In this document: piece by piece, positions 24,371 to 53,256 of the stretch
Layout of the letters: every line of letters starts with the position of its first letter
Position numbering within the stretch: the stretch's first letter is position 1
NCBI GenBank assembly: GCA_041659265.1
Contig: JBAZYP010000001.1
Location: forward strand, 128,817 to 192,816
Direction of reading: 5' to 3'
DNA length: 64,000 nucleotides
Source: Candidatus Pacearchaeota archaeon
GTDB taxonomy: Archaea > Nanobdellota > Nanobdellia > Pacearchaeales > GW2011-AR1
Translations under genes and position numbers: made by a program
Notes under the pieces: model-generated
Told to the model about the DNA's origin: nothing
Database searches by the model: none
What the model saw: the letters and a program-made list of their open reading frames with translations, nothing else

Positions 24371-24524
24371 TCATTGATTTGTAGGCATTAAAAAAATATC
24401 GAAATTTTTTAGGCATATTATATATTTAAAAACAAAATTAAGGTAGATTATATATTATTTAGTAACTATTATAAAATGGTAAAAAGGAAAGTTTTAAATA
24501 CCCCATAATAATCATTTTTATAAG

Positions 24525-36783: not shown

Positions 36784-39700
36784 ATGGCCTATAAAAGATA
36801 TTTTAATATTAATGGGAAAAAATATGGCCCGTATTATTATGAGTCATATAGGGATTCATCTGGAAAGGTAAAAAAAAGATATGTGAAAGTAATTGAGGAA
36901 GATAAAAAAAGTTTTACTCCTACAGATTTTTTCTCAATAATTAATAATAAAAAATTATATTTAATTTTAGGAATATTATTTTTAGCATTAATATTTGGAT
37001 TTTTTTTAATGAATAATAATTCTAATGAAGTAACTAAATCAAATGCAGCTAATTCTAAATTATTAGGCGGTTTTACAGGTTATGTTGTTTCAGAAATAAG
37101 TGAAGAAGAAATTTTGCAGAGTTATAAAAATGATAAAGCAGATTTATCTATAAAAGAACCTAAAAAGATTTTTGGTAATATTGTTTCTGAAAATAAGAAT
37201 AAAAGGATGGATTTTAGCTTATCTAGTGGAGAGATAAGAGTTTATTTTGATTTATTGAATTATAGTAATTTTGTTAGTAATATTGAAGAAAAGATAATTA
37301 ATGGCGAAAGTTCTCAAGTAGGGAGTAGTCAAATTAATAATCCTGGATTAACTGGTAATGTAGTTAGTGAAGAAGAAAATACTAGTGTTGATAATGGTAA
37401 TTTAGAAGAAAATATAATTGAAGAGAATAATTCTAGTAATAAAATTAATGAAAATGATAATGAGCAAAATTTGGTTGATGAAAATTCTATTAATGGTAAT
37501 GAAAATAATGAAATTAAAAATGAAATTAGTATTGATGAAGTTAAGCAAAAGGTTGAAGAAATTGAATCTGAAGAAATTGAAGTTATTGCAGATAGTTCTA
37601 AAGTTGAAGCTGAAAATTTTGATATTAATATAGATAAGATTCCTGATGAAAATGAAAAAGAATCTTCATATAAATGGGGGTATAAAGTTAGATTAAATGA
37701 TTATAAGTTTTTAGCTAAAATTGATGTTACATCTGGAGATAAGATTTCTGTTTATAATGAAAATAGTTTAAAAATTGGTAGAAATATATTATCATTTTCT
37801 GATTTAGAAAGTCAAGGGTATAAAGTTAGTTTTGAAAAACCTAATTTAGATATAGTAGAAGAAAAAGTTGAAGAAGTTGTTCAAGTAATTGAAAAAGAAG
37901 ATACAACAATAGAAAATATTGAAAATGTTACGGAAGAAAATGTTAATGAGAGTCAAGAAAGTCAAGGTAATGAAAGTAGTGTAGAAGAAAATACTGTAAA
38001 TTCTGAAACTTCTGTTGATGAAAGTACTGGTAATGTTGATAATAATGTTGATGAGACTGTTGGAGATGGAGCAGCTAATAATGGAGAAGATACTAGTAAT
38101 GAGAAAAGCGAAACTCCTGTTGAAGAGGGCGCTAATAATGCTGAAGCAAGTAGTGAAGCAAGTAGTGAATCAATAAGTGAAACTACAAGTGACCCTGCAA
38201 GCGAATCTGTAAGTGAATCTTTAAGCGAATCAGTTAGTGAAACTTCAAGCGAATCAACTAGTGAAGGAAGTGTTGAAGCTAGTCCAGGAATAACTGGGGG
38301 AGTTATAAGATTCTTTTCAGGAATAACTGCTAAAATTATTGGAATTGATGAAGAAAGTGTTGTTGAAGATATAAGTTACGAAAACATAATAACTGTTTAT
38401 ATTGAAAGAGATTTTACAAATAATAATGAAGGAATTGAATTAGGGGATATTATTGAAATTGATCCTACATTAATAATTTATATTTCTAAAGCAGAACACT
38501 TGGATAGTTCCAGAAATTATATTAGTGATATCTATGAAAGTGTTAGTGTTTTAGATGGAAATTTTAGTGAAGAAATAAGTGTAGGTGATTTTGTAAGAGT
38601 AAGTTTTGAAGAGAATCTTACCAATGAAAGAGATATAACAATTTATGCAAGAGGAACAAGTGGAGAAAGTTCAATTGAAGTTTATGAAAAAGATGGAAAT
38701 GACGTAATTGCTAAATTTGAAGGAATTAGTGAAGAGAAAGAATATAAAATATATCTTGAAAATTTAAGTTTGTATCAAGATACTTTTGATTTGAAGATTC
38801 TTGATAATCCCGCTAGCTTTGATTATATTGTTGACCCTTTTATAGATAATGGTTCGATGATTCAATATGTTTATGATTGTGGAATATTAAATACAACTGG
38901 GGCTACTTATATTTTAAATCAGTCGATTAATACTACTGGAACTTGTTTTAATATAACTGCTGATAATGTTACTTTAGATGGAAATGGGTATAGTATTGAT
39001 GGGGATGATTCTGGAACAGATTATGGAATTTATGCTAATGGAAGAATTAATTTAACTATTAAGAATTTTAATAATATAACTGATTTTGCTTCTGCAGGAA
39101 TATATTTTAATAATATTAATAATTCATTAATTTATAATTCTAGTATATTATCCAATAATGAGGGAATTCATTTTCTATCTAGTTATAATAACAACTTAAG
39201 CATAATTACGTCTAATAATAATTCACAAAGCGGAATTTATTTTAATACTGCTAATTATAATACTTTATTTAATATTACTTCTAATTCTAATAGTAATGGT
39301 ATTTATTTTAATCCGGGTTCTAATAACAACTTAAGTATAATTACTTCAAATTACAATTCACAAAATGGAATGTATCTTATCTCTTATTCTAATAATAATA
39401 AATTAATTTCTGTAACTTCTAATTCAAATCTTAATTCTGGAATTTATTTTCAATCAAGTTCAAATAACACATTATTTGATTTTACTTCAAATTCAAATCT
39501 GGGTTATGGAATTAATATTTATACTAGTTCAATGAATGTAATAAATAATTTTTCCTTATGGAATTGTTCAAAATCAGCAAGTTTTGCTTGTATAAGTTTA
39601 TTTGGTGTCTTTGATTATGCAAATGATAATTCTCTAATTAATGGTAATATTAATTATACTACTAATTCTGGAATTGCGATTCAAACAATGCCTATGAATG

Positions 39701-42700
39701 GATATGTTCGAAATAATTATTTTAAGAATATAAAAATTGAAAATATTAATGGAAATATCATATATGTGGGGTTACTTGTTGGAGGCGATTCAATTAATAA
39801 TACATTTATTAATGTAAGTTATCAATCATCCGGAGAAGCTTTTTCAGGATGCATTTCAACAACTTGTGAAATTATTAGAAAATGGTATTATTCTGCAAGT
39901 GTTAATGATACAAGAGGATTAGCTGTAGATGGTGCTAATGTTTCTTTGGTAAATGTTAGTGGAGTTAATCAAGGAACATTATTAACAAATGCTTTAGGAT
40001 TAACTAATCTAACTGAAATTATTGAATATGTTAATTATGCTGGAACAAGAACATATTATTCTAATTATACATTAAATGCAAGTAAAAATGGATATGGTGC
40101 TAGTGGACATGTTATGAATTTTTCAATTAGTCAGAATTTATTAAATGATTATTTTATACTTGATAGTACATTAAACATAACTCAAACATATTCTCAAAAT
40201 ATATCTAGCACTGTTGGTGGAAGTGTTGTAAGAGGAGATAATGTAACAATTAATGCAACAATTGTAAATGCAACAATAATTGATAAAGTTTGGATAAAGC
40301 TATGGCAAGGTGCTGTTGGAGTTAGTCAAGTAATATGGCAAGGGTTTATGGCGTTTATTAGTGGAAATTTATGGAGTGTAACAATACCTACAAATATGAC
40401 TTGGAATATTGGAGAGGTAAATTATACAGTTTATGCAAATGATACCATTGGGCAGGAAGTTAATATGAGTTCTAATGTAACAATGTTACAAGGATTTAAT
40501 TTGACACAGTGCGGGGTGTTAGATGTTGAGAATGGTTATTATAGGTTGATGAATAATGTTTCAAATAATGAAACTTGCTTTAATATTACTGCTGATAATG
40601 TGACTTTGGATGGAAATGGGTATTTAATTAATTTTTCAAGTGATAGTGGAGATGCAAATTATGGAATTTATGGAAATCGTATTTCTAATATAACTATTAA
40701 AAATTGTAAGTTTATAGCAAAGTCAAGAGATAGTTATTATGATGATGGTATTTATTTAGCAAATTCAAATTTTTCTTTAATTTATAATAATAGTTTTGAA
40801 AGTTGTTTTAATGGAGTTAATATTGTTAACTCTACATTTATTACCATAGAAAATAATACTCTAAATAATATTGCTACTGGTGTATATTTTTGGGCTGTAA
40901 CTGATTCAAATGTAACTAATAATATAATTAATGATGGTAATTCTTGGTCAGGGGTTGCACTATCAATTTCTAATAGAAGCCTTATATATGGAAATTTAAT
41001 TTCAAATTTTACAGGAATGGTAGTTATTACCGGTGCAATTGATTTATCTAGTTCTTATTACAATAGAATCATTCTTAATAATATAACTGGAGTTTATTCA
41101 GGAATTCAACTTATCTTAAGTAATTATAATAATCTTTCTATGAATAATATTAAAAATATTAATTTGAATGGGGATGGAAGTGGATTAAGGTTAGTAGGAA
41201 ATTATAATTATGTAGAAAAAATATTTATTCAAAATGTATCCTATGGTGATGATGGATTGACTGTTGAAGGAAGTTATAATATTGTAAATGAAACAAGGAT
41301 TGATTTTTCAAGAACAAATGCATTATATTTTAATGAAGCTCAAAATAATTCTTTATATAATATAAATATTACAAATTCAGGATATTTTATTGAAAGTATT
41401 GGTAATAAAAATTTAAATAATAATTTAATTAATGTTACAACAACAAATGATTCAGAACGTCTTTCATTGGGTACAGATTATTTCAGAAAATGGTATTTGG
41501 ATGTTAATGTTAGTAATTTAACTAGCCAACTTGATAATGCTTTAATAAATTCTTCAAATAGAACTGGAAGTTTGCAATATTCTGATTTGACTTCTAGTAG
41601 TGGAATTGTTAGACAAGAGTTAGTAGAATATGTTAATATTAATGGAACTAGGACTTATTATTCACCTTATACTTTGAATGTGACTAAAACGGGTTATAGT
41701 GATTATGGAAATAATAGTGTGAATATAAGTTCGAATAAATGGATGGATGTTAGACTAGATGTTAGTAGTGATGGTTCAATTGGAATAACTCAATGTCAGG
41801 AATTGAATCAGGCAAATACGACTTATGTTTTACAGAATAATGCAAATACAACTGGAACTTGTTTTAATATTACTGCAGATAATGTTACGTTAAATTTAAA
41901 TGGCTTTGATATAATTGGATCACAAAATGGTTATGGTGTTTATGGAACTGGAATTAATAATATAAATATTTCTAGAGGAGGTTATATCAAGAATTTTAGT
42001 AATGCTATTTATTTAATGGATGTTAATTATAGTGTTATTGAGGGTTTAAATATAAATGAGAATAATGGCGTTTATTCTGGAATTTATTTATTACAAAGTA
42101 ATTATAATAATTTAACAGCAATAAATTATAGTTATAATAATGCAAGTAATAATTCTGGACTTTTTGTTGAAAGTTCCTCTTATAATAATATTTGGAATAA
42201 TTATTTTAATTTTAATAATGTGACTCATGCAACTGGTAATCTTTATGGAGCCCCTATATTAGGATTGTATTTAAATTCATTAGGAAATAATATTGAAAAT
42301 TCAACATTAATAAATAATCTATTTATAATGGGCGGAAGTAGTTCTATTCTTGGAGGAGGATTGTTTGGATTATCAAGTGGGTGCAATAATAGTATTATTA
42401 GAAATACCAATATTAGTAATAATTTTATGAATCTTTCTAATTTTATTATTGGTGGAGCAATTGGTTTATATGATAGTTCTAATAATAATATTTCTTCAAG
42501 CATAATTTTTAATAATACTTTTAAATCCACTCAAGCTTTTCGTGGAGGGGCTATAGGTATTCAAGAAAGTTATAATAATATTATTTTATTAAGTTCAATT
42601 AATAATAATTATATTGAAAGTAATACTGTTTCTGGAGGAGTAATTGGTATCGCTTATGGTTCAAATTATAATAATATTTCTTCAAGTTTTATTTCTGGTA

Positions 42701-45700
42701 ACATTGTTAGGGTAAACAGTATGATAGATGGAGGAATAATCGGAGTTGAAGCATCAACTAATTTTATATGGAATAGTACAATTACAAGAAATAATATTAC
42801 TCTATATGATGTTTATGGTGGGGGTGTTATTGGATTAGAATCAAATAATGATGCATTTTTAACTAATATTTCAAATAATAATATTACTATGTTTCAAATT
42901 CATGGTGGAGGGGTAATTGGAACTTATTGGGGAGAGTATGTTAATTTTTCTATTAATACTATAGTTGGCAATATTATTACAATAACGGATTCTATTTATG
43001 GCGGAGGAATAATCGGAATTAGTTCTTATGATTCTAGTTATAACACTATTTTTAATAATATTATTCTTAATAATACTATTTCTAATAGTAATTATGTTAT
43101 TGGTGGAGGGGTAATTGGTATGAATAGTGCTCACTATAACAATATTTCTTTAAGTTTAGTTTCAGGAAATTTAATTAGATTAAATCATGAAGTTTATGGT
43201 GGAGGGATAATTGGAATAAATTATGGAAGGGGAAATAATATTTCTTTAAGTACAATTTCCAATAACAATATAACTAATAATAATGTTTCAGGTGGAGGAA
43301 TAATAGGGTTTATAGGAAGTACTAGCACAAATAATAGTATTTTATCGAGTTCGATAAGTGGAAATAATCTATCTAATTATTATCTAGGTGGAGGAGCTAT
43401 AATTGGTCTTTTTGATAGTTCTTATAATAAATTTATAAATATTTCAATAAATGGTTCTTCAAATTTAGGAAAGGGAATTGGTTTGCAAAGAAGTTCAAGC
43501 TATAACTTATTTAAGGATATAGAAATATCTTATTCTGGAGATTATGCAATCGGAGTAAATAATCATTTAAATGCAAATTCTATCAATAATACTTTTAATA
43601 ATCTTTCTGCAATATATGCTCCAAATGGTTCATTGTATATCTCACAACAATATAATGGAACAAATTTAATTGATATTTCTAATTTAGGAAATTATACAAT
43701 TTTTGGAACTGGTGCAACAATAAATATTGAAAATACTTTATATGGAAAAATTAGTTATATAAATGTTGTAAGTGGATCTGGTACAAATTTCTCGAATGAT
43801 ATTAGAATTGGAAATAATTCAATAACAGTTGAATCTGGAAGTCAAAATGGATTAAATAGAAGTGCGAATTTAAGATTATATGGACTATCAACTAGTTATC
43901 TTAATCCAAAAATTTATAGGAATGGAAATATTATTTGTAATTCAACTACTAATCCATCATGTTATAATTTTTCATCTTTAAATGCTGGAATAGTTATTTT
44001 TAATGTAAGTAGTTGGAGTAATTATAGTATAGGTGAATTGAATGAAACGCTTAATTTAACTCTTAATATAACTCAAACAATTTATCAAAATCAATCTGGA
44101 ACTGTTGGTGGAAGTGTTGTAAGAGGAGATAATGTAACAATTAATGCAACAATTGTTAATGCAACTGTAATTGATAGAGTTTGGATAAAGATATGGCAAG
44201 GTGCCATTGGTGCTTCACAGATAATATGGCAAGGATTTATGGCGTTTATTAGTGGAAATCTGTGGTCGGTTACTATTCCAACTAACTCAAGTTGGAATGT
44301 TGGATTAATGAATTATACTGTTTATGCAAATGATACAATCGGGCAGGAAGTGAATTTGAGTTCTAATGTAACAATGTTACAAGGATTTAATTTGACTGAG
44401 TGTGGGGTTTTGGATCAGGTTAATGGGTATTATAGATTGATGAATGAAATTGAAATTAATGATTCTCCAACAAGTGATTGTTTTATTATCAGTGCAAATA
44501 ATATAACTTTAGATCTTAATGGATTTGGTATAATTAGTAATTGGACTGGTGTAGAAGATGACCCTTGTTTTTTAAAAACAAAATCATTTATTAGATTATC
44601 AAATTCAAATAATTCTAGAATTTTTAATGGTTATGCTAATAATTTTTCAGGATATGGAATTTATGATAGTGGGGCATATGTTTATGGAACAATTATTGAA
44701 AATTTTAGTGTAAATTATGGATGTCATGCTATATTTATGTTAAATAGCGATAATATTTATGTTAATAATATTACTTCAATTGAAAATCTTGGAGGAATTT
44801 ATGCAAATGATAATAATATAATAAAAAATGTTTATTATTATAATAATCATATTGGAGGGATGATTACTACTCGTGGAATTTGGCTCAAAGATAACAATAC
44901 TCTTGAAAATAATATCGTAGTTAATAATGTAAGTTATGGCATAAATGTTGAAGATAATAATACTCTAATAAATAATTTTATTATTAATAATTCAAATGAA
45001 TTATATACCACTGAGCAGGGTAGTTTGGGTCTTCAGAATAATAATTATGTTGAAAATTTATTTATAGATAATGTTATTTGTGGAATAACCTTAGGTTCAA
45101 ATAATACAATTAAATTTTTTAATATAACAAATAGTGATTTTGGTATTTATCCTAAAGAATTAATAACTTATTATACAAATAACACTTTTATAGATGGATC
45201 TATTAGTAATTCAAATATTTTAGATATTAATTTAACAAGATCCTCTCAAACAGTTAAATTTTATTTTATTAATATAAGTTATAATTATTCTAGGGAATTT
45301 GTTAAAGGAGCAAATGTCTCATTAATTCGTAAATGGTATTTGGATGTTAATGTAAGTAATATTACAGGGCAATTGGATAATTCCTTAGTTAATTCAAGTA
45401 ATTCTAGTGGAATATTGCAGGTTTCTACATTGACTGGAAGTAGTGGGATTGTTAGACAAGAATTAACTGAATATATTAATATTAATGGAACTTGGATTTA
45501 TTATTCTCCTTATACTTTGAATGTTACTAAATCTAATTATACTTCTTATGGAAATAATTCAGTTAATATAAGTGGAAATAAGTGGATGGATGTGAGGCTT
45601 GATGTTAGTGGAGATGGAACTATTAGTGTTACAGAATGTCAGGAGTTGAATATTAGTGGAGGATATTATAGATTTGTTAGTGATATTTATGCAAATGGAA

Positions 45701-47673
45701 CTTGTTTTAATATTACTGATGATAATATAACACTTGATGGAAATGGATACGATCTTCATGGAATTTTTGATGCTCAATTAGGAGATGAATTTGGAATTTA
45801 TGCTTTAAATATAAAAAATTTAAATATAAAAAATATCAAAAATATAAGTAATTATGGTAGTGATGGAAGTTTAGATGGAGCTATCTATTTAGCTGGAATC
45901 AATAATTCAATAATAACAAATATTAGTTTAGAATCTAATAACTATGCTTTTAGGATAGATACTAATTCAAGAAATAATTATATATATAATCTATCTTCTT
46001 ATAATAGCTATTACGGGGTTTATTCTGTTGGGTATAATAATACTTTTAGTGATATCATTACAAATAATAACTCCAATGGTTTTACATTATCCGGATATAA
46101 TAGTTCTCTTAATATTTTAACTACTAAATATAATAGATGGTCTGGATTAGATTTGTCTTCGTCATCGGGTTATAATTTGGTTATGAATGTTACTTCACTT
46201 TATAATCAATACGGTCTCTTTTCATATTATAGCCAATTTAATATATTAAAATATAATAATTTTTCTGGAAATGATATTAATTTTAGAATATTTGAGGATT
46301 ATAACAATACGATTGATCCTTCAAATATTGTTGATTATAATTATAGAATTTATTATAATTATTCTATCTCAAATTATATTTATGATGAAAATACTGCACC
46401 AAATGCAGGATTAGTATATTGTATTAATTGTATTAATGTTACTATAAGAAATCTTAATCTTTCACATTATAATTATGATGGTGTTTATTTTTATAATACG
46501 ACTGAATCTTTTATACAAAATTTAAGTACAGATTATAACTCTTATGGAATTAATCTAGAAAGAAGTTCTAGAAATTTTATTAGCAATATTAATTCTGAAA
46601 ATAATATTAATTCATTATATCTTTATGGATTATCTACATCTAATAGATTTTATAATCTTTCTTCAAAAGATTCTCATTCTGGGATTTTATTATATGACGA
46701 TCCAACTAATAATAGTTTTGATGGAATTTTAATTTCAAATGTAAATCTTAGTATTGATATTTTTGGATGTTCTAATAATACTTTTAGTAATTTTAGTTTA
46801 TTTAATTGTTCAAATAGTAGTATTAATTCGTGCATTAATCTTTATTCTAGTGTTTCAACAAATGTAGAAAGTAATTGGTTTATTTCTGGTTTAATAGATA
46901 CTTCTTATGAAAGTTCAAAGGGAATTTGGATACAATCTACAGCTTCCGGATATAATAAGAATAATTATTTTAAAGATATTAAATTAAAAAATATTAGTGG
47001 AGATTATATAAGAATTGAAAGAACTTCTGGTACTGCATCTAATAATACTTTTGTTAATGTAAGTTATCCATTGTCAAGCGAGATAGTAAGTGGAACTTCA
47101 GCTGAACTTATTAGAAAAGGGTATTATTCAGCAAGTGTAAATGATACGAGAGGATTAGCTGTAAGTGGAGCTAATGTTAGTTTAGTTAATGTTAGTGGGG
47201 TTAATCAAGGTACATTATTAACAAATGATTTAGGTTTAACAAATCTAACTGAAGTTATTGAATATGTTAATTATGCTGGAACAAGAACATATTATTCTAA
47301 TTATACTTTAAATGCAAGTAAAAATGGATATGGTGCTAGTGGAAAAACAAAGAATTTTTCTATAAGTCAGAATTTATTAAATGATTATTTTATACTTGAT
47401 TCAACTCTAAATGTAACTTCTGTTATAAGTCAGAATCAATCTGGAAGTGCGGGTGGAACAGTAGCTAGAGGGGATAATGTTACAATTAATGCAACAATTG
47501 TAAATGCAACAATAATTGATAAAGTTTGGATAAAGTTATGGCAAGGAGCTATTGGTGCTTCTCAGATAATCTGGCAAGGATTTATGGCTTTTATTAGTGG
47601 GAATCTTTGGTCAGTTACAATTCCAACTAATTGGACATTCCCTGTTGGTGAAGTAAATTATTACTGTTTATAG
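36784..47673 (+). CDS. giant surface protein, N-terminal segment (3629 aa) of a roughly 4930-aa multi-cassette beta-helix adhesin-like protein
   Basis: A basic cytoplasmic N-terminus is followed by a TM helix (LYLILGILFLALIFGFFLM), an acidic E/N/S-rich region, and five beta-helix cassettes. Each cassette starts with C..L......Y.L......CFNITADNVTLDGNG. N-x-S/T sequons are extremely dense. The segment ends at a TAG created by a 1-nt insertion. Confidence 0.85.
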   Translation: MAYKRYFNINGKKYGPYYYESYRDSSGKVKKRYVKVIEEDKKSFTPTDFFSIINNKKLYLILGILFLALIFGFFLMNNNSNEVTKSNAANSKLLGGFTGYVVSEISEEEILQSYKNDKADLSIKEPKKIFGNIVSENKNKRMDFSLSSGEIRVYFDLLNYSNFVSNIEEKIINGESSQVGSSQINNPGLTGNVVSEEENTSVDNGNLEENIIEENNSSNKINENDNEQNLVDENSINGNENNEIKNEISIDEVKQKVEEIESEEIEVIADSSKVEAENFDINIDKIPDENEKESSYKWGYKVRLNDYKFLAKIDVTSGDKISVYNENSLKIGRNILSFSDLESQGYKVSFEKPNLDIVEEKVEEVVQVIEKEDTTIENIENVTEENVNESQESQGNESSVEENTVNSETSVDESTGNVDNNVDETVGDGAANNGEDTSNEKSETPVEEGANNAEASSEASSESISETTSDPASESVSESLSESVSETSSESTSEGSVEASPGITGGVIRFFSGITAKIIGIDEESVVEDISYENIITVYIERDFTNNNEGIELGDIIEIDPTLIIYISKAEHLDSSRNYISDIYESVSVLDGNFSEEISVGDFVRVSFEENLTNERDITIYARGTSGESSIEVYEKDGNDVIAKFEGISEEKEYKIYLENLSLYQDTFDLKILDNPASFDYIVDPFIDNGSMIQYVYDCGILNTTGATYILNQSINTTGTCFNITADNVTLDGNGYSIDGDDSGTDYGIYANGRINLTIKNFNNITDFASAGIYFNNINNSLIYNSSILSNNEGIHFLSSYNNNLSIITSNNNSQSGIYFNTANYNTLFNITSNSNSNGIYFNPGSNNNLSIITSNYNSQNGMYLISYSNNNKLISVTSNSNLNSGIYFQSSSNNTLFDFTSNSNLGYGINIYTSSMNVINNFSLWNCSKSASFACISLFGVFDYANDNSLINGNINYTTNSGIAIQTMPMNGYVRNNYFKNIKIENINGNIIYVGLLVGGDSINNTFINVSYQSSGEAFSGCISTTCEIIRKWYYSASVNDTRGLAVDGANVSLVNVSGVNQGTLLTNALGLTNLTEIIEYVNYAGTRTYYSNYTLNASKNGYGASGHVMNFSISQNLLNDYFILDSTLNITQTYSQNISSTVGGSVVRGDNVTINATIVNATIIDKVWIKLWQGAVGVSQVIWQGFMAFISGNLWSVTIPTNMTWNIGEVNYTVYANDTIGQEVNMSSNVTMLQGFNLTQCGVLDVENGYYRLMNNVSNNETCFNITADNVTLDGNGYLINFSSDSGDANYGIYGNRISNITIKNCKFIAKSRDSYYDDGIYLANSNFSLIYNNSFESCFNGVNIVNSTFITIENNTLNNIATGVYFWAVTDSNVTNNIINDGNSWSGVALSISNRSLIYGNLISNFTGMVVITGAIDLSSSYYNRIILNNITGVYSGIQLILSNYNNLSMNNIKNINLNGDGSGLRLVGNYNYVEKIFIQNVSYGDDGLTVEGSYNIVNETRIDFSRTNALYFNEAQNNSLYNINITNSGYFIESIGNKNLNNNLINVTTTNDSERLSLGTDYFRKWYLDVNVSNLTSQLDNALINSSNRTGSLQYSDLTSSSGIVRQELVEYVNINGTRTYYSPYTLNVTKTGYSDYGNNSVNISSNKWMDVRLDVSSDGSIGITQCQELNQANTTYVLQNNANTTGTCFNITADNVTLNLNGFDIIGSQNGYGVYGTGINNINISRGGYIKNFSNAIYLMDVNYSVIEGLNINENNGVYSGIYLLQSNYNNLTAINYSYNNASNNSGLFVESSSYNNIWNNYFNFNNVTHATGNLYGAPILGLYLNSLGNNIENSTLINNLFIMGGSSSILGGGLFGLSSGCNNSIIRNTNISNNFMNLSNFIIGGAIGLYDSSNNNISSSIIFNNTFKSTQAFRGGAIGIQESYNNIILLSSINNNYIESNTVSGGVIGIAYGSNYNNISSSFISGNIVRVNSMIDGGIIGVEASTNFIWNSTITRNNITLYDVYGGGVIGLESNNDAFLTNISNNNITMFQIHGGGVIGTYWGEYVNFSINTIVGNIITITDSIYGGGIIGISSYDSSYNTIFNNIILNNTISNSNYVIGGGVIGMNSAHYNNISLSLVSGNLIRLNHEVYGGGIIGINYGRGNNISLSTISNNNITNNNVSGGGIIGFIGSTSTNNSILSSSISGNNLSNYYLGGGAIIGLFDSSYNKFINISINGSSNLGKGIGLQRSSSYNLFKDIEISYSGDYAIGVNNHLNANSINNTFNNLSAIYAPNGSLYISQQYNGTNLIDISNLGNYTIFGTGATINIENTLYGKISYINVVSGSGTNFSNDIRIGNNSITVESGSQNGLNRSANLRLYGLSTSYLNPKIYRNGNIICNSTTNPSCYNFSSLNAGIVIFNVSSWSNYSIGELNETLNLTLNITQTIYQNQSGTVGGSVVRGDNVTINATIVNATVIDRVWIKIWQGAIGASQIIWQGFMAFISGNLWSVTIPTNSSWNVGLMNYTVYANDTIGQEVNLSSNVTMLQGFNLTECGVLDQVNGYYRLMNEIEINDSPTSDCFIISANNITLDLNGFGIISNWTGVEDDPCFLKTKSFIRLSNSNNSRIFNGYANNFSGYGIYDSGAYVYGTIIENFSVNYGCHAIFMLNSDNIYVNNITSIENLGGIYANDNNIIKNVYYYNNHIGGMITTRGIWLKDNNTLENNIVVNNVSYGINVEDNNTLINNFIINNSNELYTTEQGSLGLQNNNYVENLFIDNVICGITLGSNNTIKFFNITNSDFGIYPKELITYYTNNTFIDGSISNSNILDINLTRSSQTVKFYFINISYNYSREFVKGANVSLIRKWYLDVNVSNITGQLDNSLVNSSNSSGILQVSTLTGSSGIVRQELTEYININGTWIYYSPYTLNVTKSNYTSYGNNSVNISGNKWMDVRLDVSGDGTISVTECQELNISGGYYRFVSDIYANGTCFNITDDNITLDGNGYDLHGIFDAQLGDEFGIYALNIKNLNIKNIKNISNYGSDGSLDGAIYLAGINNSIITNISLESNNYAFRIDTNSRNNYIYNLSSYNSYYGVYSVGYNNTFSDIITNNNSNGFTLSGYNSSLNILTTKYNRWSGLDLSSSSGYNLVMNVTSLYNQYGLFSYYSQFNILKYNNFSGNDINFRIFEDYNNTIDPSNIVDYNYRIYYNYSISNYIYDENTAPNAGLVYCINCINVTIRNLNLSHYNYDGVYFYNTTESFIQNLSTDYNSYGINLERSSRNFISNINSENNINSLYLYGLSTSNRFYNLSSKDSHSGILLYDDPTNNSFDGILISNVNLSIDIFGCSNNTFSNFSLFNCSNSSINSCINLYSSVSTNVESNWFISGLIDTSYESSKGIWIQSTASGYNKNNYFKDIKLKNISGDYIRIERTSGTASNNTFVNVSYPLSSEIVSGTSAELIRKGYYSASVNDTRGLAVSGANVSLVNVSGVNQGTLLTNDLGLTNLTEVIEYVNYAGTRTYYSNYTLNASKNGYGASGKTKNFSISQNLLNDYFILDSTLNVTSVISQNQSGSAGGTVARGDNVTINATIVNATIIDKVWIKLWQGAIGASQIIWQGFMAFISGNLWSVTIPTNWTFPVGEVNYYCL
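38146..38283 (+). repeat. 12-bp-period coding repeat (SESx)n, acidic Ser-rich low-complexity tract
   Basis: It encodes SSEASSESISETTSDPASESVSESLSESVSETSSESTSEGS, from agtgaa/agcgaa repeats. Confidence 0.7.
39871..40525 (+). repeat. about 650-bp intragenic repeat, copy 1 (modules C+A), re-occurring at 47107..47761
   Basis: IRKWYYSASVNDTRGLAV.GANVSLVNVSGVNQGTLLTN...LNITQT...IWQGFMAFISGNLWSVTIPTN is repeated almost verbatim. Confidence 0.85.
41486..41775 (+). repeat. about 290-bp intragenic repeat (module B, CarboxypepD_reg-like), copy 1 of 3
   Basis: RKWYLDVNVSNLT.QLDN...GIVRQEL.EY.NINGT..YYSPYTLNVTK..Y..YGNNSVNIS.NKWMDVRLDVS recurs at about 45328 and about 48776. Confidence 0.85.
42240..43440 (+). 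repeat. array of about 20 degenerate units of about 25 aa with GG(A/V/I)IG and FxxN/NNxI motifs (Pmp-like repeat)
   Basis: The units read ...IIGGAIGLYDSSNNNISSSIIFNNTF..FRGGAIGIQESYNN...VSGGVIGIAYGSNYNNIS...IDGGIIGVEAS... Confidence 0.6.
44062..44415 (+). repeat. module A, copy 2 (about 355 bp)
   Basis: LNITQTIYQNQSGTVGGSVVRGDNVTINATIVNATVIDRVWIKIWQGAIGASQIIWQGFMAFISGNLWSVTIPTN...TMLQGFNLTECGVLD. Confidence 0.85.
45328..45618 (+). repeat. module B, copy 2
   Basis: See 41486..41775. Confidence 0.85.
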
Positions 47674-47761
47674 CAATGATACAATTGGGCAGGAAGTTAA
47701 TTTGAGTGGTAATTTTACGACTGTTGAAAATTATAATGTTACTCAGTGTGGGGAATTGGGA
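47107..47761 (+). repeat. about 650-bp intragenic repeat, copy 2 (modules C+A); contains the frameshift
   Basis: It is near-identical to 39871..40525. The reading frame breaks at 47661/47662. Confidence 0.85.
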
Positions 47762-50700
47762 CAAGAAAATGGGGTTTATAGATTGATGAATGATGTTAAT
47801 ACTAATAGTACTTGTTTTAATATAACTGCGGATAATGTGACCTTGGATTGTAATAATTATATAATTAATTTTTCTAAAGGAGGCCCACAATTTAGTAATG
47901 GGGTTTATTCTAATCAAAATAGATCAAAGATTTATAATTGTAAAATTTATCAAGGAGACTCAAGATTTAATCAATATAATAGGGGAATATATGTTATATC
48001 TAGTGGTAGCGAGGGAATTGAAATAATTAATAATTTTATTTATGTTTTTGATTATCGTGGAATTGAATTCCAGTTTTCAACTTTTAGCAATTCTCCTATG
48101 ATAATAAAAAATAATAGAATAAATAGTACTTGGGAGAGAGGTATTATGATTCAATGGGGGGCTAGTAATATCAATATTTCTAATAATACTATTAATTCTT
48201 ATGATACGGGGATCTATTTTAATGGGAATAATAGGAATATTAATTGTGAAAATAATTTTGTTAATACATTTGGTACTTCTGTTGGCTTATCTTATTCAAG
48301 TGGAGTAAATTCAAGTTTTATTTCAAATTATATATATGGGGGCATGGATATGAGTGGAATTGCTATTATTAAAGATAATTATGTAAAAAGTATTAATAAT
48401 ATTGGTATTTATCTAGCTGCTCAAAATTCTGTTATGATAAATAATACTGGAATTTCTTTAAGTAATTTTGGAATTGGTGTTTATGAATCTAATATTATTC
48501 TTATAAACAATACTGCATCATCAAATTCATCTTTTGCAATAGAGGTTTATACTAATAATAATATTTCAATTATTAATCAAAATGTTACTGGAGTTTCTTC
48601 AAGTAGTGGTGGATATTTGATTTCTGATGGTAATAATATAATAATTAAAGATTGTATTACAATTCAATATGGTTATTCTGCTATTAATGTTACAGGTAAT
48701 GTAAACAATCTTACTATTCTTAATTGTTCCTATGATTCTTCTAAGGAGTTTGTAAAATTAGGAGGTAATCTAACTAGAAACTGGTATTTGGATGTTAATG
48801 TAAGTAATTTAACCGGTCAACTTGATAACGCGCAAGTTAATTCAAGTAACTCAAGTGGAATATTGCAAGATTCTGATTTAACTACAAGTAGTGGAATTGT
48901 TAGACAAGAATTAGTTGAATATGTTAATATCGGTGGAAGTAGAACATATTATTCACCTTATACTTTGAATGTGACTAAATCTAATTATACTTCTTATGGA
49001 AATAATTCTGTTAATCTAAGTGGAAATAAGTGGATGGATGCGAATCTTGATATATTTGAAGAAATTCCTATAATAATAAACATTCTTTATCCAGTTAATG
49101 GAACAATTTATAATTATAATGTAAGTAATATTAATTATAGTGTTAATGTAACTGATGGTTCTTGTTGGTATAGCTTGAATAGTGGAAATACCAATTCTAG
49201 TGCTCTAGCTTCTGGAATTAATTTTACAAATGTTGTTTCAGTTGAAGGAATAAATAATTGGATAGTTTATTGTAATGATAGTTCTGGAAATATGAATTCT
49301 AGTTTAGTTATATATTATCTTAATAGGAGTTTGAATATTACTCAAACAATTTATCAAAATCAATCTGGAGTTGTTAGTGGAACAGTAGTTAGAGGAGATA
49401 ATATTACAATTAATGCAACAATTGTAAATGCAACTGTAATCGATAGATTTTGGATTAAGATATGGCAAGGTGCCATTGGTGCTTCACAGATAATATGGCA
49501 AGGATTTATGGCCTTTATATCCGGAAATTTATGGAGTGTTACAATACCTACAAACTCAAGTTGGAATATTGGTGAAGTGAATTATACGGTTTATAGCAAT
49601 GATACAATTGGGCAGGAAGTTAATTTGAGTGGGAATTTTACTACATTAGCGCAAAATCCTCTTGTTATTATAATCGGTTATCCTGTGAATAATTCTCAAT
49701 ATAATTATTATGTTAATTCTATTAATTATAGTATAATTGAAAACTCGACTTCTGTTGATAAGTGCCGGTATAGTAATTCAAGTGGAAATTGGAATTCTAG
49801 CATAGTTAATGCTGGAAATAATTTTACAAACGTTAGTACAAAATTAGGTGAAAATAATTTTATTATTTGGTGTAATGAAAGTAATGGAAATACTAATTAT
49901 AGCTTGGTTAATTTTAATGTTACAATAGATTCATATTCTCCTGTAATTGATAACTTTAGTGAATTATTTGTTTGTGAAGATGAGGCACTTAATTATTATT
50001 TTAATGTAAGTGATGATGATTCTAATTTGGATATTTCAAATTATAGTATTATTCCTGAATATCCTCTTAGTCCTTTTTATTTAAATTATAATTCTCAATA
50101 TAATTTAACTAAAGAGATATTTTATTTGTTTTCTGGAATTATAACTAAAAGTAATGTAGGTGGAATATTATCCGGATATAGGATTTATAATGAAAATATT
50201 AGTTTTACTGATGGGGAATCTATTACTCGAAGAAATTTTAATATAACTTTGATTGGTATAAATCATGCACCGATTATTGAAAATATTCCTAGTAATATAA
50301 CTCTATATATAAGTGGCGGAAATACAACTTATAATTTTATTGCTAGTTCAAGTGATATTGAAGATGGAACTAATCTCGATTCTAATCTTACATATAATAT
50401 TAGTTTTTCAGCTACAAATTTATTTAATATAGGTTCTAATGGAAGTATGTTTTTTAATGCAACAAACTCTAGTGAACTTGGAGTTCATGACGTAACAATT
50501 TGTGTCATTGATAGAAATCTAACAAATATTCATACAAATATTAGCTATTATTGTTCTAATTCTGGATTATCTAAATCTAATTGTACAACATTTTCTTTAA
50601 TAATAACAAATGAAAATCGGGCACCACAGATATTAAGTTATTATCCAAATCTAAATTTAAGTGTAAATGGAAATAGTGCTATGATGTTTAATGTTAGTTC

Positions 50701-51580
50701 AATTGATTATGAAGGAACAATTCCAAATACTTATTGGTATATTAATAATATTCTTGAAGAAACAGATACAAATAATACTCTAGCAATTTTAAGCCATACA
50801 TTTGGCTGTGGTGTATCTGGATATCATAATGTAACTGCATTTGTAAGTGATGGAAATTTATCAAGTTCAATATCTTGGAATATTTCAGTAACTCTTAATC
50901 CTTGTACAGTAACTGTTGTTGATAGTGGTGGTGGAGGAGGCGGTGGAGGCGGAGGTGCACCAAGTTATATAACCTATACTCCAAATAAAACTGAATTAGA
51001 AAATGAATATATAAGATCTTTAAGAAATAATGATAGATTTAAATTAAATATTTCAAATAATATTTATTATCTTATTTTATCTAGTCAAAATTCAAATAAT
51101 GTAGAAGTATATACTTTGCACGATATGAAGAATTATTCAATTAAACCTAATGGAAATATCTTGCTTGATTTGGATAATAATAATCAATCAGAAATAATTG
51201 TAAACTTTTTATCTTCTAAAGATATTTATGCAAATATTAGTGTTAAAACATTTATTCAAGAAATAAAACAAAATAAAACAGAAGTAAAAAATAATATTTT
51301 AGAAGAAGAACTTTTTGAGGAAGCACCTGAATTAGAGAAAGGTAGTAATAGAATAAAACCCAATAAATATGAACCGGTTTTAATAACAATTGGAATAATA
51401 ATTGCTGCTATTTTGGTTTCATTTATAATTTATTTAGGTTATAGGGCTTATAAAATAAGAAAAAATCTTTATACTGCACCAAAAATATTACCTAAAAAGA
51501 TTGTAAAAATTGCTCCTAAAATAAATAAAAAAATTCCTTCAATAAAACCAAAACGACCATTATGGGGAACAGGAAAATAA
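47702..51580 (+). CDS. giant surface protein, C-terminal segment (sixth beta-helix cassette, Ig-like repeats, poly-Gly, C-terminal TM anchor)
   Basis: The track start is a TTG inside repeat module A, and the sequence continues module A in the +1 frame. It has N(H/R)AP(I/Q)I Ig-like domain boundaries, G10, the TM helix VLITIGIIIAAILVSFIIYLGY and a K/R-rich tail. Confidence 0.8.
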   Translation: MSGNFTTVENYNVTQCGELGQENGVYRLMNDVNTNSTCFNITADNVTLDCNNYIINFSKGGPQFSNGVYSNQNRSKIYNCKIYQGDSRFNQYNRGIYVISSGSEGIEIINNFIYVFDYRGIEFQFSTFSNSPMIIKNNRINSTWERGIMIQWGASNINISNNTINSYDTGIYFNGNNRNINCENNFVNTFGTSVGLSYSSGVNSSFISNYIYGGMDMSGIAIIKDNYVKSINNIGIYLAAQNSVMINNTGISLSNFGIGVYESNIILINNTASSNSSFAIEVYTNNNISIINQNVTGVSSSSGGYLISDGNNIIIKDCITIQYGYSAINVTGNVNNLTILNCSYDSSKEFVKLGGNLTRNWYLDVNVSNLTGQLDNAQVNSSNSSGILQDSDLTTSSGIVRQELVEYVNIGGSRTYYSPYTLNVTKSNYTSYGNNSVNLSGNKWMDANLDIFEEIPIIINILYPVNGTIYNYNVSNINYSVNVTDGSCWYSLNSGNTNSSALASGINFTNVVSVEGINNWIVYCNDSSGNMNSSLVIYYLNRSLNITQTIYQNQSGVVSGTVVRGDNITINATIVNATVIDRFWIKIWQGAIGASQIIWQGFMAFISGNLWSVTIPTNSSWNIGEVNYTVYSNDTIGQEVNLSGNFTTLAQNPLVIIIGYPVNNSQYNYYVNSINYSIIENSTSVDKCRYSNSSGNWNSSIVNAGNNFTNVSTKLGENNFIIWCNESNGNTNYSLVNFNVTIDSYSPVIDNFSELFVCEDEALNYYFNVSDDDSNLDISNYSIIPEYPLSPFYLNYNSQYNLTKEIFYLFSGIITKSNVGGILSGYRIYNENISFTDGESITRRNFNITLIGINHAPIIENIPSNITLYISGGNTTYNFIASSSDIEDGTNLDSNLTYNISFSATNLFNIGSNGSMFFNATNSSELGVHDVTICVIDRNLTNIHTNISYYCSNSGLSKSNCTTFSLIITNENRAPQILSYYPNLNLSVNGNSAMMFNVSSIDYEGTIPNTYWYINNILEETDTNNTLAILSHTFGCGVSGYHNVTAFVSDGNLSSSISWNISVTLNPCTVTVVDSGGGGGGGGGGAPSYITYTPNKTELENEYIRSLRNNDRFKLNISNNIYYLILSSQNSNNVEVYTLHDMKNYSIKPNGNILLDLDNNNQSEIIVNFLSSKDIYANISVKTFIQEIKQNKTEVKNNILEEELFEEAPELEKGSNRIKPNKYEPVLITIGIIIAAILVSFIIYLGYRAYKIRKNLYTAPKILPKKIVKIAPKINKKIPSIKPKRPLWGTGK
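48776..49045 (+). repeat. module B, copy 3
   Basis: See 41486..41775. Confidence 0.8.
49331..49645 (+). repeat. module A, copy 4
   Basis: LNITQTIYQNQSGVVSGTVVRGDNITINATIVNATVIDRFWIKIWQGAIGASQIIWQGFMAFISGNLWSVTIPTNSSWNIGEVNYTVYSNDTIGQEVNLSGNFTT. Confidence 0.85.
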
Positions 51581-51591
51581 CTTTATATTCT

Positions 51592-52623
51592 TTATCTTGT
51601 TGTTACAATTATTTTGTTATCAGGAGTTTTTATAAAAGTATGTTCTGCTTGAGAAACAGGTTTTTTTGATACTTCAATTAATTGAGGATAACTATGTACA
51701 ATACCTGTATCAACAAGTTCTTTTAAACCTAATTTTGAGATATTTCCAAATTCTTCTTGAAGTTCTCTTAAAGAAAATGGTAAGGTTTGTTTTTTCATCC
51801 AGATGTATTCTAGAATTTTTCTTGCTGTAGGGCCTCTTGGAGTTCTTGGATTAGCTACTCTATAGATATTACTTGGAGGACCATCATGAATTTTTCCTTC
51901 ACCAGTTGTAGCAAAAGGTTCTATCGCATATGCACCTGGATCAATTCTATGAGGACTATTATTAGCATGGTTTGGAATTGTTTCACCTGCATGAATGGTA
52001 TAAGGTGCTAAAGAATGACCTGAAAGATTAACTATTGGTGAAAATCCTCTCTTTTCTATTGATTCTTGAATAGTTTTTCCAATATCATTTAATGTAGGAT
52101 CTTTATCTAAAAGTTTAATAGCATTTTCTAAAGCTTCTTCTGAAGCTTTTATTAAACTGGTGAATTTTTTATCATCTGTTAAATCTAAAGAAAAAGAGGT
52201 ATCTGCAATAAATCCTTCAATATGAATCCCTAAATCAACTTTTAATAATCCTGTTGCTTTTGTTTCATCTTCTAAAGTTGGATGATAATGGGCAGCAACT
52301 TCGTTAATTGATAAATTTACTGGAAAAGCAGGTTCTCCTCCTAATTCATATGTTTTTTTCTCAATCATCTGTGCAATTTCAAGAAGAAGCATATCTTTTT
52401 TTATAATGGGTCTTGCATATTCTTTTACTTTTATTGCAATTTCACCAGCTTTAATATAATTATTAATTTCCTTATCAATCTCTTTAGTAATTTTATTTGA
52501 AACTTTGTTTAATTTTTCTATTTTCTTTTCAGTTGTTTTGTTAGGTTTATCTGTTTTAGATTTTACAGGTCCACCTAAATGCTCTCTAATTCCATTATTT
52601 CCTCCGTATGATTTTTCTGTCAT
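51592..52623 (-). CDS. map: methionine aminopeptidase, type 2, with Lys-rich N-terminal extension
   Basis: The motifs AAHYHP, DLGIHIEGFIADTSF, GHSLAPYTIHAG, AIEPFATTG and AEHTF are present. About 50 extra basic N-terminal residues precede the core. Confidence 0.9.
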   Translation of the reverse strand: MTEKSYGGNNGIREHLGGPVKSKTDKPNKTTEKKIEKLNKVSNKITKEIDKEINNYIKAGEIAIKVKEYARPIIKKDMLLLEIAQMIEKKTYELGGEPAFPVNLSINEVAAHYHPTLEDETKATGLLKVDLGIHIEGFIADTSFSLDLTDDKKFTSLIKASEEALENAIKLLDKDPTLNDIGKTIQESIEKRGFSPIVNLSGHSLAPYTIHAGETIPNHANNSPHRIDPGAYAIEPFATTGEGKIHDGPPSNIYRVANPRTPRGPTARKILEYIWMKKQTLPFSLRELQEEFGNISKLGLKELVDTGIVHSYPQLIEVSKKPVSQAEHTFIKTPDNKIIVTTR

Positions 52624-52852
52624 GTAATATTTAACCTCATTAAATGAACATCAGAAAAATTGATAATTTTTCTGTCATGAATAGTCTAAAATTTTGGGGT
52701 ATATAAATCTTTAAACTTGCAAAACCTATTAAAATATGCTTGAAAAAGGTGAAAGAAAAGATTGTTAATAAAAGGCCTATTAGCCATATTAGGTATTTTT
52801 TTAAATTAAATAGATAAGTTTTTATAGGCTCTAAATAAATGATATTTTAAGG

Positions 52853-53119
52853 ATGATGGATTCAAATTTACAGGAGATAGTTAATAGTATTTTAAGTCAT
52901 ACGCCTGGAGATACTATTCCTGATGATTTAATAAGAAAAGGTCTTGATGTTTTTGCAGATAGTTATAGAAAACTTATTCCAGGTGAAGATGGTATTTGTT
53001 ATGATAAAGCAGCTTTTACATTTATTAGTACTATAGTTGGTGATAAAAATCTAGCTGTAATTCAGTTATACATGGATTATTATGAAACTAATAAGATTGT
53101 TAAAAGGAAAAGTGAATAA
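52853..53119 (+). CDS. hypothetical protein
   Basis: This is an 88-aa ORF with no recognised motif. Confidence 0.45.
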   Translation: MMDSNLQEIVNSILSHTPGDTIPDDLIRKGLDVFADSYRKLIPGEDGICYDKAAFTFISTIVGDKNLAVIQLYMDYYETNKIVKRKSE

Positions 53120-53124
53120 AAAGT

Positions 53125-53256
53125 AAATTAAAAATTTCTTTATAAAATTTTTAGATAAACTATCTAATCCTACGCTCTTTAGCCATAAAACAAATTAAAA
53201 ATTTCTTTTGAAATTTTTAGATTAATTATCTAATCCTACGCTCTTTAGCCATGAAA
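53125..53256. repeat. tandem duplication (about 66 bp x 2) of the 3' end of the 53226..53669 gene plus terminator hairpin
   Basis: aaattaaaaatttcttt.(t/g)aaaatttttagat.aa.tatctaatcctacgctctttagccat occurs at 53125 and 53192. The second copy holds the real stop codon. Confidence 0.8.

What the first reader, a model, noticed from the sequence alone, without database searches (positions are those of the whole stretch)
36784..51580. A roughly 14.8 kb gene for a roughly 4930-aa surface protein is split by a single inserted T
The 3629-aa and 1292-aa ORFs are one gene. The break lies inside repeat module A. Copy 4 reads gaagtgaattatacggtttatagcaatgatacaattgggcaggaagttaatttgagtggg (EVNYTVYSNDTIGQEVNLSG). 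The copy at 47651 reads gaagtaaattatTactgtttatagcaatgat..., with one extra T at 47661/47662 that creates TAG at 47671. Removing it restores EVNYTVYSNDTIGQEVNLSGNFTT into the downstream ORF, whose annotated start is only a TTG inside the repeat. Three explanations are possible: an assembly or sequencing error in a repeat, a genuine recent inactivation, or an ON/OFF switch that separates the N-terminal five cassettes from the C-terminal membrane anchor. A truncated product would lose its C-terminal TM anchor, so it might be released or held only by the N-terminal helix. The gene occupies nearly a quarter of this window, which is a very large investment for a small-genome archaeon.
Basis: seen in the sequence. 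Interest (0 to 1): 0.7.

Follow-up and report, generated by a model that had tools for sequence, protein, structure and literature searches.

The report
Giant archaeal surface-protein gene, one-base frameshift
A 14.8-kb gene for a roughly 4,930-residue cell-surface protein of a tiny DPANN archaeon is cut in two by one extra T inside a conserved domain, which is an ordinary broken gene (or an uncorrected assembly error) and not a new kind of genetic switch.

Summary
ORF A (36784-47673, 3629 aa) and ORF B (47702-51580, 1292 aa) are one ancestral gene. All three sister copies of the repeat read AATTATAC. The broken copy reads AATTATTAC, with the extra T at 47661/47662. Deleting it gives a 4931-aa open frame.

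The break lies inside the conserved NYT motif (N and T invariant) of an Ig-like domain. Twenty-nine copies of that domain in 18 proteins from other organisms are all continuous there.

The protein has an N-terminal membrane helix, six parallel beta-helix cassettes with Ig-like modules, a stalk and a C-terminal membrane anchor. It carries twice the expected number of N-glycosylation sites. Relatives of 2,000-7,200 aa exist in other DPANN-type genomes, so the protein kind is already known.

There is no repeat tract or slippery site at the break. This argues against an ON/OFF switch or programmed frameshifting.

ORF B has no stop in 1308 codons, so the break is either younger than about 1.2-1.6% neutral divergence or not real.

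An independent short-read contig matches the window with no indels over 4.9 kb but stops short of the break. I could not examine reads. My estimate is a real recent mutation about 0.55 and an artefact about 0.33. Interest is low.

The parts
36784..51580 (+). Whole ancestral gene. It gives 4931 aa once one T is removed.
36784..47673 (+). ORF A, 3629 aa. It holds the N-terminal lead, a TM helix, an acidic spacer and N-terminal domain, beta-helix cassettes 1-5 and a truncated third Ig-like module. It ends ...GEVNYYCL*.
   Evidence: Equals P0005 in the public collections.
47661..47662 (+). TT dinucleotide holding the one extra T. All three paralogous copies have a single T here.
47671..47673 (+). 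Premature TAG created by the frameshift.
47654..51580 (+). Downstream reading frame of 1308 codons, open to the natural stop. The annotated ORF B starts at TTG 47702. It holds the end of module A, cassette 6, the stalk, the TM anchor and a Lys-rich tail.
36784..36951 (+). N-terminal lead of 55-56 residues with the motif NGKKYGPYYYE, probably cytoplasmic. The motif is shared with a 5116-aa relative, P0053.
36952..37011 (+). N-terminal hydrophobic helix (aa 57-76), a signal anchor or signal peptide.
38878..38976 (+). Head motif of beta-helix cassette 1 (C..L...Y....TCFNITADNVTL). The other heads lie at 40510, 41794, 44401, 45637 and 47747.
   Evidence: Beta_helix/NosD Pfam hits in the cassette 1, 5 and 6 pieces scanned separately, plus a whole-ORF A hit at aa 1261-1384 (cassette 2).
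40231..40488 (+). Ig-like module A, copy 1, intact.
44122..44379 (+). Ig-like module A, copy 2, intact.
47467..47725 (+). Ig-like module A, copy 3, broken. The left part, 47467-47661, is in frame 0. The right part, 47663-47725, is in frame +1.
49391..49648 (+). Ig-like module A, copy 4, intact.
49649..51364 (+). C-terminal stalk, homologous to a widespread family of roughly 650-aa membrane-anchored proteins, for example P0006 from a Ca. Pacearchaeota MAG.
51377..51439 (+). C-terminal TM anchor (aa 4865-4885), followed by a 46-aa Lys-rich tail at 51440-51577.

Best explanation
The locus is a single gene for a 4931-aa, heavily N-glycosylated surface protein of a DPANN (Woesearchaeota/Pacearchaeota-type) archaeon. 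Its order of parts is: a short N-terminal lead, a membrane helix, an acidic spacer and N-terminal domain, six parallel beta-helix cassettes interleaved with carboxypeptidase-regulatory-like and Ig-like modules, a stalk, a C-terminal membrane anchor and a basic tail.

One T has been inserted in the codons for the conserved NYT motif of the third Ig-like module. I judge the insertion most likely to be real DNA sequence of the sampled population and evolutionarily very recent.

Consequences (inferred). Translation stops three codons later. The 3629-aa product keeps the N-terminal helix and five cassettes. It ends in an Ig-like domain that is missing its last one and a half strands, and it lacks cassette 6, the stalk and the C-terminal anchor. 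The downstream 1292-codon frame has no signal sequence and starts in mid-domain, so it is not a functional gene of its own.

What is shown: one gene, one inserted base, its position within the domain, and the architecture. What is inferred: that the base is present in the cells, and the fate of the products.
For: One gene:
- Searches show the single-base restoration and the colinear similarity through the break.
- An HMM of the module finds 29 copies in 18 proteins of other organisms. All continue through the break position. Only the ORF A end copy stops, at HMM position 66 of 96.
- The alignment of 28 copies has only three invariant columns, and two of them are the N and T of NYT.
- The AlphaFold model (pLDDT 84) puts the break inside the second-to-last beta-strand, residues 101-111 of the model, with strand 116-126 lost.

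Surface protein:
- There are exactly two hydrophobic helices, at aa 57-76 and 4865-4885.
- There are 293 N-X-S/T sites against 144 +/- 10 in shuffles.
- Beta_helix and NosD Pfam hits are found.
- Relatives include a protein that JGI names 'surface protein/parallel beta-helix repeat protein'.

Real rather than artefact:
- The window agrees with an independent short-read-derived contig over 4924 nt, with 1 mismatch and 0 indels. That stretch contains 66 homopolymers of 5 nt or longer.
- The extra base is not in a homopolymer.
- None of the three paralogous copies carries the T, so cross-mapped paralog reads could not have introduced it.

Recent: 4.8-6% of random substitutions in ORF B would create a stop, yet none is present in 1308 codons. 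This bounds neutral divergence since the break at about 1.2-1.6% (95%).
Against: No reads and no second assembly across 47661 could be examined. The independent contig L002 ends at 49603, 1.9 kb short of the break.

A perfectly open 1308-codon downstream frame is exactly what an assembly error would also give.

The break lies 4 nt from a 44-nt exact repeat (47666-47709 = 49589-49632). That is a place where assemblers have difficulty.

The sequencing technology behind the 257-kb source contig is not known to me.
Confidence: 0.55

Rival explanations
1. Assembly or consensus artefact. The organism carries an intact 4931-aa gene, and the extra T was introduced during assembly or polishing of a repeat-rich region.
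For: The downstream frame is flawless over 1308 codons. The site lies next to a 44-nt exact intragenic repeat and within roughly 75-90% identical paralogous modules. Short-read assemblies of this population do break at these repeats. Only one contig in the public collections carries the gene, so nothing replicates it.
Against: There are no indels against an independent contig over 4.9 kb of very AT-rich, homopolymer-rich sequence. The insertion is not in a homopolymer, which is not the usual long-read error type. No paralog has the T, so mis-mapped paralog reads would remove it rather than add it. I saw no other obviously broken gene among the suspicious ORF pairs checked.
Confidence: 0.33
2. 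A reversible ON/OFF switch (phase variation by slipped-strand mispairing), or programmed +1 ribosomal frameshifting or transcriptional slippage, that still yields full-length protein.
For: Large surface proteins are typical targets of phase variation in bacteria (general knowledge). The frames overlap by only 17 nt and the downstream frame is intact.
Against: There is no tandem repeat or homopolymer at the site. Only TT is present, and the nearest runs of 7 nt or more are kilobases away. No codon in 47654-47670 lets a P-site tRNA re-pair in the +1 frame, and the TTA before TAG would have to slip to TAT (read directly). All 3 paralogous and 29 homologous copies are in frame, so the feature is not conserved.
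Confidence: 0.06
3. Two genuine, separately functional genes.
For: Both public annotations call two CDSs. An AGGA-like stretch precedes the TTG at 47702.
Against: The boundary falls inside a beta-strand of a conserved domain. ORF B would lack any signal sequence, although it consists of glycosylation-site-rich extracellular modules. The same AGGAAGTTAAT sequence is present in every in-frame copy of the module. No relative is split here.
Confidence: 0.02

Closest known systems
Multi-cassette 'parallel beta-helix repeat' surface proteins of DPANN-type archaea in public metagenomes. Examples are P0004 (7209 aa, JGI name 'surface protein/parallel beta-helix repeat protein'), P0007 (5913 aa), P0053 (5116 aa) and P0010 (2233 aa).
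   Same: They have the same building blocks in the same order: the head motif C..L..Y...CFNIT..N.TLD, a NosD-like beta-helix, the RKWY...EYVN.GGTR.YYS.Y module, the Ig-like module A ending in NYT(V/I)(Y/F)AND, and then the next head. They have a C-terminal TM plus a basic tail. P0053 shares the N-terminal NGKKYGPYxYE motif.
   Different: Identity is only 32-48%, so these are not orthologues. The number and order of cassettes differ. The relatives are continuous where this gene is frameshifted.
Single-cassette membrane-anchored beta-helix proteins (L001 gene of 568 aa, P0001 of 712 aa, P0002 of 611 aa).
   Same: They have one copy of the same unit (signal/TM, head, NosD/Beta_helix, the EVIEYVNY-type module). 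P0001 and P0002 also end in a C-terminal TM anchor.
   Different: The window gene strings six such units together, adds Ig-like modules and a stalk, and is about eight times longer.
Giant surface ('SPEARE') proteins of nanohaloarchaea (8,880-9,409 aa), described in PMC10266531.
   Same: Both are giant, membrane-anchored, Ig-domain-rich ectoproteins. Each takes a large share of a roughly 1-Mb DPANN genome and is proposed to mediate contact with the host.
   Different: Those proteins carry a VirB4/TraG-like ATPase domain and sit next to a secretion ATPase gene. No such domain or neighbour is found here, and no sequence relationship was detected.
[quoted passage not shown]
   Same: Both are predicted right-handed beta-helix, glycosylated, extracellular proteins of an ectosymbiotic archaeon, suggested to act in host interaction.
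   Different: That comparison rests on structure prediction in another lineage. I did not compare the sequences directly.
Phase-variable bacterial adhesin genes (contingency loci with homopolymer or short-repeat tracts).
   Same: Both involve a large surface protein interrupted by a 1-nt frameshift.
   Different: The defining mutable tract is absent here.

Membership tests
Frameshift-disrupted single gene (split ORF or pseudogene) | Adjacent same-strand ORFs in different frames with a short overlap of open frames | tested here: met
   Frames overlap only at 47654-47670.
Frameshift-disrupted single gene (split ORF or pseudogene) | Similarity to intact paralogs and homologues runs colinearly through the break, and one indel restores it | tested here: met
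Frameshift-disrupted single gene (split ORF or pseudogene) | The indel is present in the organism's DNA (supported by reads) | not testable with these tools
   No read access. The only independent contig, L002, ends at 49603. A look-up of the predicted 55-aa junction fragment found nothing.
Phase-variable contingency locus | A homopolymer or short tandem repeat tract at the frameshift site | tested here: not met
   Only TT is present. TRF reports no array at 47600-47720. The longest runs in the gene are 8 nt, at 36870 and 37000.
Phase-variable contingency locus | Both tract lengths coexist in the population | not testable with these tools
   This needs reads.
Programmed +1 ribosomal frameshift (prfB/RF2-like) | A slippery P-site codon that re-pairs in the +1 frame, next to a stop or slow codon, conserved among homologues | tested here: not met
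   The codons GAA GTA AAT TAT TAC TGT TTA TAG offer no +1 re-pairing. All paralogs and 29 homologous copies are in frame.
Giant parallel beta-helix surface proteins of DPANN archaea | Repeated right-handed beta-helix (PF13229/PF05048) cassettes | tested here: met
   Pfam hits in the cassette 1, 5 and 6 pieces scanned separately, plus a whole-ORF A hit at aa 1261-1384 (cassette 2); the cassette 3 piece gave no beta-helix hit and cassette 4 was not scanned on its own. Six head motifs are found.
Giant parallel beta-helix surface proteins of DPANN archaea | Export or anchor signals and extracellular hallmarks | tested here: met
   There are two hydrophobic helices, at the two ends. N-X-S/T sites are enriched 2-fold, about 15 SD above shuffles. 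The Ig-like fold was checked by a fold search.
Giant parallel beta-helix surface proteins of DPANN archaea | Homologues with the same module order in related genomes | tested here: met
   There are 1390 hits at E<=1e-3 and 196 at E<=1e-30. P0010, P0053 and P0004 share the module order. The window's MetAP is 64% identical to that of a Ca. Woesearchaeota MAG.
Giant parallel beta-helix surface proteins of DPANN archaea | Shown to be on the cell surface, or shown to be expressed | not testable with these tools
   No expression or proteome data.
Nanohaloarchaeal SPEARE-type giant proteins | A VirB4/TraG-like ATPase domain and an adjacent secretion ATPase gene (PMC10266531) | tested here: not met
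   No ATPase domain appears in the Pfam or NCBIfam scans of either ORF or of the pieces. The neighbours are dUTPase and methionine aminopeptidase.

The most novel reading that the evidence does not exclude
The insertion is real and is maintained as a strain-level variant. It would convert a protein tethered at both ends into a five-cassette form held only by its N-terminal helix, or shed if that helix is cleaved. This would change how the episymbiotic archaeon contacts its host or escapes viruses. On this reading, frameshifts inside the repeated Ig-like modules would be a general 'module-dropping' route of surface variation in DPANN giant proteins.
Probability: 0.08. Interest if true: 0.45.

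Novelty: new member of a known kind. Interest (0 to 1): 0.2.

Why it matters
The main value is for annotation. The two public CDS calls (3629 aa and 1292 aa) should be one gene, flagged as frameshifted, and the 1292-aa 'protein' with a TTG start should not spread as a family member.

The locus also gives a clean module map of a large, unnamed family of DPANN surface proteins. The family combines beta-helix cassettes, a carboxypeptidase-regulatory-like module, an Ig-like module with a conserved NYT motif and a roughly 650-aa-family stalk. These proteins probably mediate attachment to hosts.

If reads confirm the T, this would be an example of very recent truncation of a host-contact protein in a natural population. 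That would be interesting but not surprising.

Tried and rejected
1. Exact-protein look-up of ORF A found nothing on record.

2. A word-indexed protein search with the 225 aa before the break gave no hits. The same tool with the 438 aa after the break, and with a repaired junction peptide, gave only distant relatives: P0001, P0002 and P0154. The tool also failed to return P0003, P0005 and P0010, which are in the collection. Its negatives are therefore weak evidence.

3. A genome-collection scan with a junction-spanning peptide found nothing. A scan with the neighbouring MetAP found a Ca. Woesearchaeota MAG without synteny.

4. The single metagenome scan gave one distant single-cassette relative.

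5. I tried to reach the break through other assemblies. The MetAP look-up gave two contigs of the same population, but they end at 49603 and 51465. I predicted the k=31 unitig across the break (47506-47695) and looked up its 55-aa product, which was not on record.

6. The first AlphaFold run, with only paralog rows, was useless at pLDDT 34. The second, with 28 diverse copies, worked.

7. The fold search gave only generic Ig-like matches (TM 0.45-0.65), so no specific family could be named.

8. I considered a repeat-mediated mis-join at the 44-nt exact repeat. I rejected it as the cause because a join through that repeat would not change the base count 4 nt upstream of it.

9. Pfam on other suspicious adjacent ORF pairs in the window revealed no further broken gene, though this check has low power.
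Full report
**Observation**

The window has 26% G+C. Between 36784 and 51580 on the + strand there are two long ORFs: 36784..47673 (3629 aa, ATG) and 47702..51580 (1292 aa, TTG). The sequence at 47650-47673 reads GAAGTAAATTATTACTGTTTATAG. The first frame ends at TAG 47671-47673. The second frame is already open from 47654, directly after a TAA at 47651-47653. Any frame change must therefore lie within 17 nt.

The region belongs to a repeat present four times in the gene. In an alignment of the four copies, three read AATTA-TAC and the break copy reads AATTATTAC. Three separate pairwise alignments each leave exactly one base of the break copy unaligned, at 47661. Deleting one T gives a 4931-codon frame with no stop. 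The protein then matches copy 1 colinearly across the break, with aa 3501-3698 against 1089-1286 at 79%. When the two halves are aligned with the intact copies, they abut with a single residue missing. The other off-frame carries 0.17 stops per codon and has a longest open run of 53 codons, so a 1308-codon open frame is not chance.

**What the gene encodes**

The repaired protein has exactly two strongly hydrophobic segments, at aa 57-76 and aa 4865-4885. The second is followed by a Lys-rich tail of 46 residues. The protein carries 293 N-X-S/T sites against 144 +/- 10 in composition-matched shuffles. Pfam finds right-handed beta-helix and NosD matches: in the pieces covering cassettes 1, 5 and 6, and in the whole-ORF A scan at aa 1261-1384, which lies in cassette 2.

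Motif mapping gives six cassette heads (C..L..Y...CFNIT..N.TL) at aa 699, 1243, 1671, 2540, 2952 and 3655. It gives five RKWY...EYVN..GTR.YYS.Y modules, which match the carboxypeptidase-regulatory-like domain only weakly (E 0.08). It gives four copies of module A, each ending in NYTVY. Five cassettes lie before the break. After it come one cassette, a stalk of about 570 residues and the anchor.

**The broken module**

With 28 diverse copies as the alignment, AlphaFold models module A as an all-beta sandwich (pLDDT 84, pTM 0.75). A Foldseek search against the PDB returns only generic Ig-like domains such as nanobodies, CRIg and CopC, with TM scores of about 0.45-0.65. In that alignment only three columns are invariant: a Trp, and the N and T of the NYT motif. 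The extra T sits in the Y/T codons of this motif. In the model this is inside the second-to-last strand (residues 101-111), and the last strand (116-126) is encoded in the other frame.

**Relatives**

An exhaustive HMMER search with the first 1200 residues of ORF B found 1390 proteins at E<=1e-3 and 196 at E<=1e-30.
- The two window ORFs are themselves in the collection. P0005 is 3629 aa. P0003 and P0153 are 1292 aa, starting L and M respectively. They sit on a single 257,394-bp contig held by both NCBI and JGI. Both annotation pipelines therefore call two genes.
- Other hits are giant multi-cassette proteins of 2,000-7,209 aa. One is named 'surface protein/parallel beta-helix repeat protein' by JGI. 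They have the same order of modules.
- About a hundred proteins of roughly 650 aa match only the stalk. One example is P0006 from a Ca. Pacearchaeota MAG.
- Identity of the non-self relatives listed is about 30-53%, and 35-37% for the best-scoring giant proteins, so none is an orthologue.

An HMM of module A finds 29 copies in 18 of these foreign proteins. Every one continues through the break position. The only truncated instance is the end of ORF A. Smaller relatives consist of a single cassette between a signal sequence and a TM anchor.

The neighbouring methionine aminopeptidase is 64% identical to that of a Ca. Woesearchaeota MAG. The flanking genes are archaeal housekeeping genes: Cdc48, topoisomerase I, dUTPase and MetAP. 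This fits a DPANN archaeon.

Giant surface proteins in DPANN genomes, and beta-helix (pectin-lyase-like) ectoproteins in a cultivated DPANN archaeon, are already described and are thought to serve host contact (PMC10266531; bioRxiv 10.1101/2023.10.27.564410). The protein is therefore a new member of a known kind. It is not a SPEARE-type protein, because it has no VirB4-like ATPase domain or ATPase neighbour.

**Real mutation, artefact or switch?**

*Switch or recoding.* Tandem Repeats Finder reports nothing at the site. The extra base extends a single T to TT. The longest homopolymers in the gene are 8 nt and lie more than 10 kb away. None of the codons GAA GTA AAT TAT TAC TGT TTA allows +1 re-pairing (read). 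No paralog or homologue shares the shift. I rate this explanation at about 0.06.

*Two real genes.* The boundary lies inside a beta-strand, and ORF B lacks any export signal. I rate this at about 0.02.

*Artefact against real.* A Logan assembly of run SRR18595301 contains a 4924-nt contig of the same population. It equals window 49603-54526 with one mismatch (53957) and no indel, and the stretch includes 66 homopolymers of 5 nt or longer. A JGI contig from a landfill-site groundwater metagenome (3300014208, sample GW1, PMC9723747) matches 1402/1402. The window consensus is therefore accurate.

That contig ends exactly at the first unique 31-mer beside the 44-nt exact repeat 49589-49632 (= 47666-47709), so it does not reach the break.

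Three points argue for a real base:
- it is not in a homopolymer;
- no paralog carries it, so mis-mapped paralog reads cannot have created it;
- no other broken gene was seen in the pairs I checked.

Three points argue for an artefact:
- ORF B is flawless;
- the site lies 4 nt from an exact repeat;
- no second assembly replicates it.

If the base is real, the break is young. Between 4.8% and 6% of random substitutions in ORF B would create a stop and none has, which bounds neutral divergence since the event at about 1.2-1.6%. Using general knowledge of error rates and of pseudogene frequency in long genes, I put a real mutation at about 0.55 and an artefact at about 0.33.

**Likely consequence if real (inference)**

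The 3629-aa product would still be inserted through its N-terminal helix and would display five cassettes. Its last Ig-like domain could not fold, and it would lack cassette 6, the stalk and the C-terminal anchor. Whether it stays on the cell depends on whether the N-terminal helix is cleaved. The conserved lead of about 55 residues before the helix (NGKKYGPYxYE, shared with P0053) suggests an uncleaved anchor. Any product from the TTG at 47702 would be cytoplasmic and non-functional.

**Verdict**

The finding is an ordinary frameshifted, or mis-assembled, giant surface-protein gene. The useful outputs are a corrected gene model and a domain map of an unnamed DPANN protein family. Interest is low (0.2).

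Noticed in passing
36784-36951: The N-terminal lead of 55-56 residues (MAYKRYFNINGKKYGPYYYESYR..GKVKKRY), probably cytoplasmic, precedes the first TM helix. It shares the motif NGKKYGPYxYE with the N-terminus of an unrelated-sample 5116-aa relative (P0053: MVYKKFLEKNGKKYGPYLYENKR). It has no Pfam match and its function is unknown.
   Followed up: partly
15985-19053; 2680-4263; 1396-1995: Three further genes in the window belong to related surface-protein families. One is a 1022-aa TM + Cys-rich + beta-helix-like protein, weakly similar to P0004. One is a 527-aa protein 41% identical to the C-terminal half of the roughly 650-aa 'stalk' family (P0037). One is a 199-aa protein 40% identical to the C-terminus of P0011.
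   Followed up: partly
4243-4455: There is an exact tandem duplication: two 104-nt copies, 109 nt apart. It begins in the last codons of gene 2680-4263 and contains hairpin-like inverted repeats.
   Followed up: no
23188-23336: A 62-nt unit is repeated about 2.4 times in tandem in an intergenic region.
   Followed up: no
24190-24240 and 24322-24372: The 3' end of tRNA-Lys(CTT) (gene at 24133-24209) plus about 30 nt downstream is duplicated 132 nt further on, with 2-3 mismatches. It looks like an att-type scar of an integrated element that has since been lost.
   Followed up: no
56755-58032: A single 425-aa ORF fuses a purine/MTA phosphorylase-type domain (PF01048) to a phosphoribosyltransferase domain (PF00156).
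   Followed up: partly
P0041 and P0010 (relatives, not in the window): Two giant relatives carry, after their C-terminal TM helix, a cytoplasmic tail with a conserved helix-turn-helix-like stretch (LGALEA..YMKENLN..Y.EIA..L.R.ERT.WTAYKKA). This hints at signalling across the membrane. The window protein has only a Lys-rich 46-aa tail.
   Followed up: no
50925-50957: A run of 11 glycines in the stalk is encoded by an imperfect GGTGGAGGAGGA repeat. A similar poly-Gly run occurs at the matching place in the stalk homologue P0006.
   Followed up: no
tool behaviour: The word-indexed protein search did not return the window's own ORFs (P0003, P0005) or close module relatives such as P0010. All of these are in the collection, so negative results from that tool should be read as weak evidence.
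   Followed up: yes
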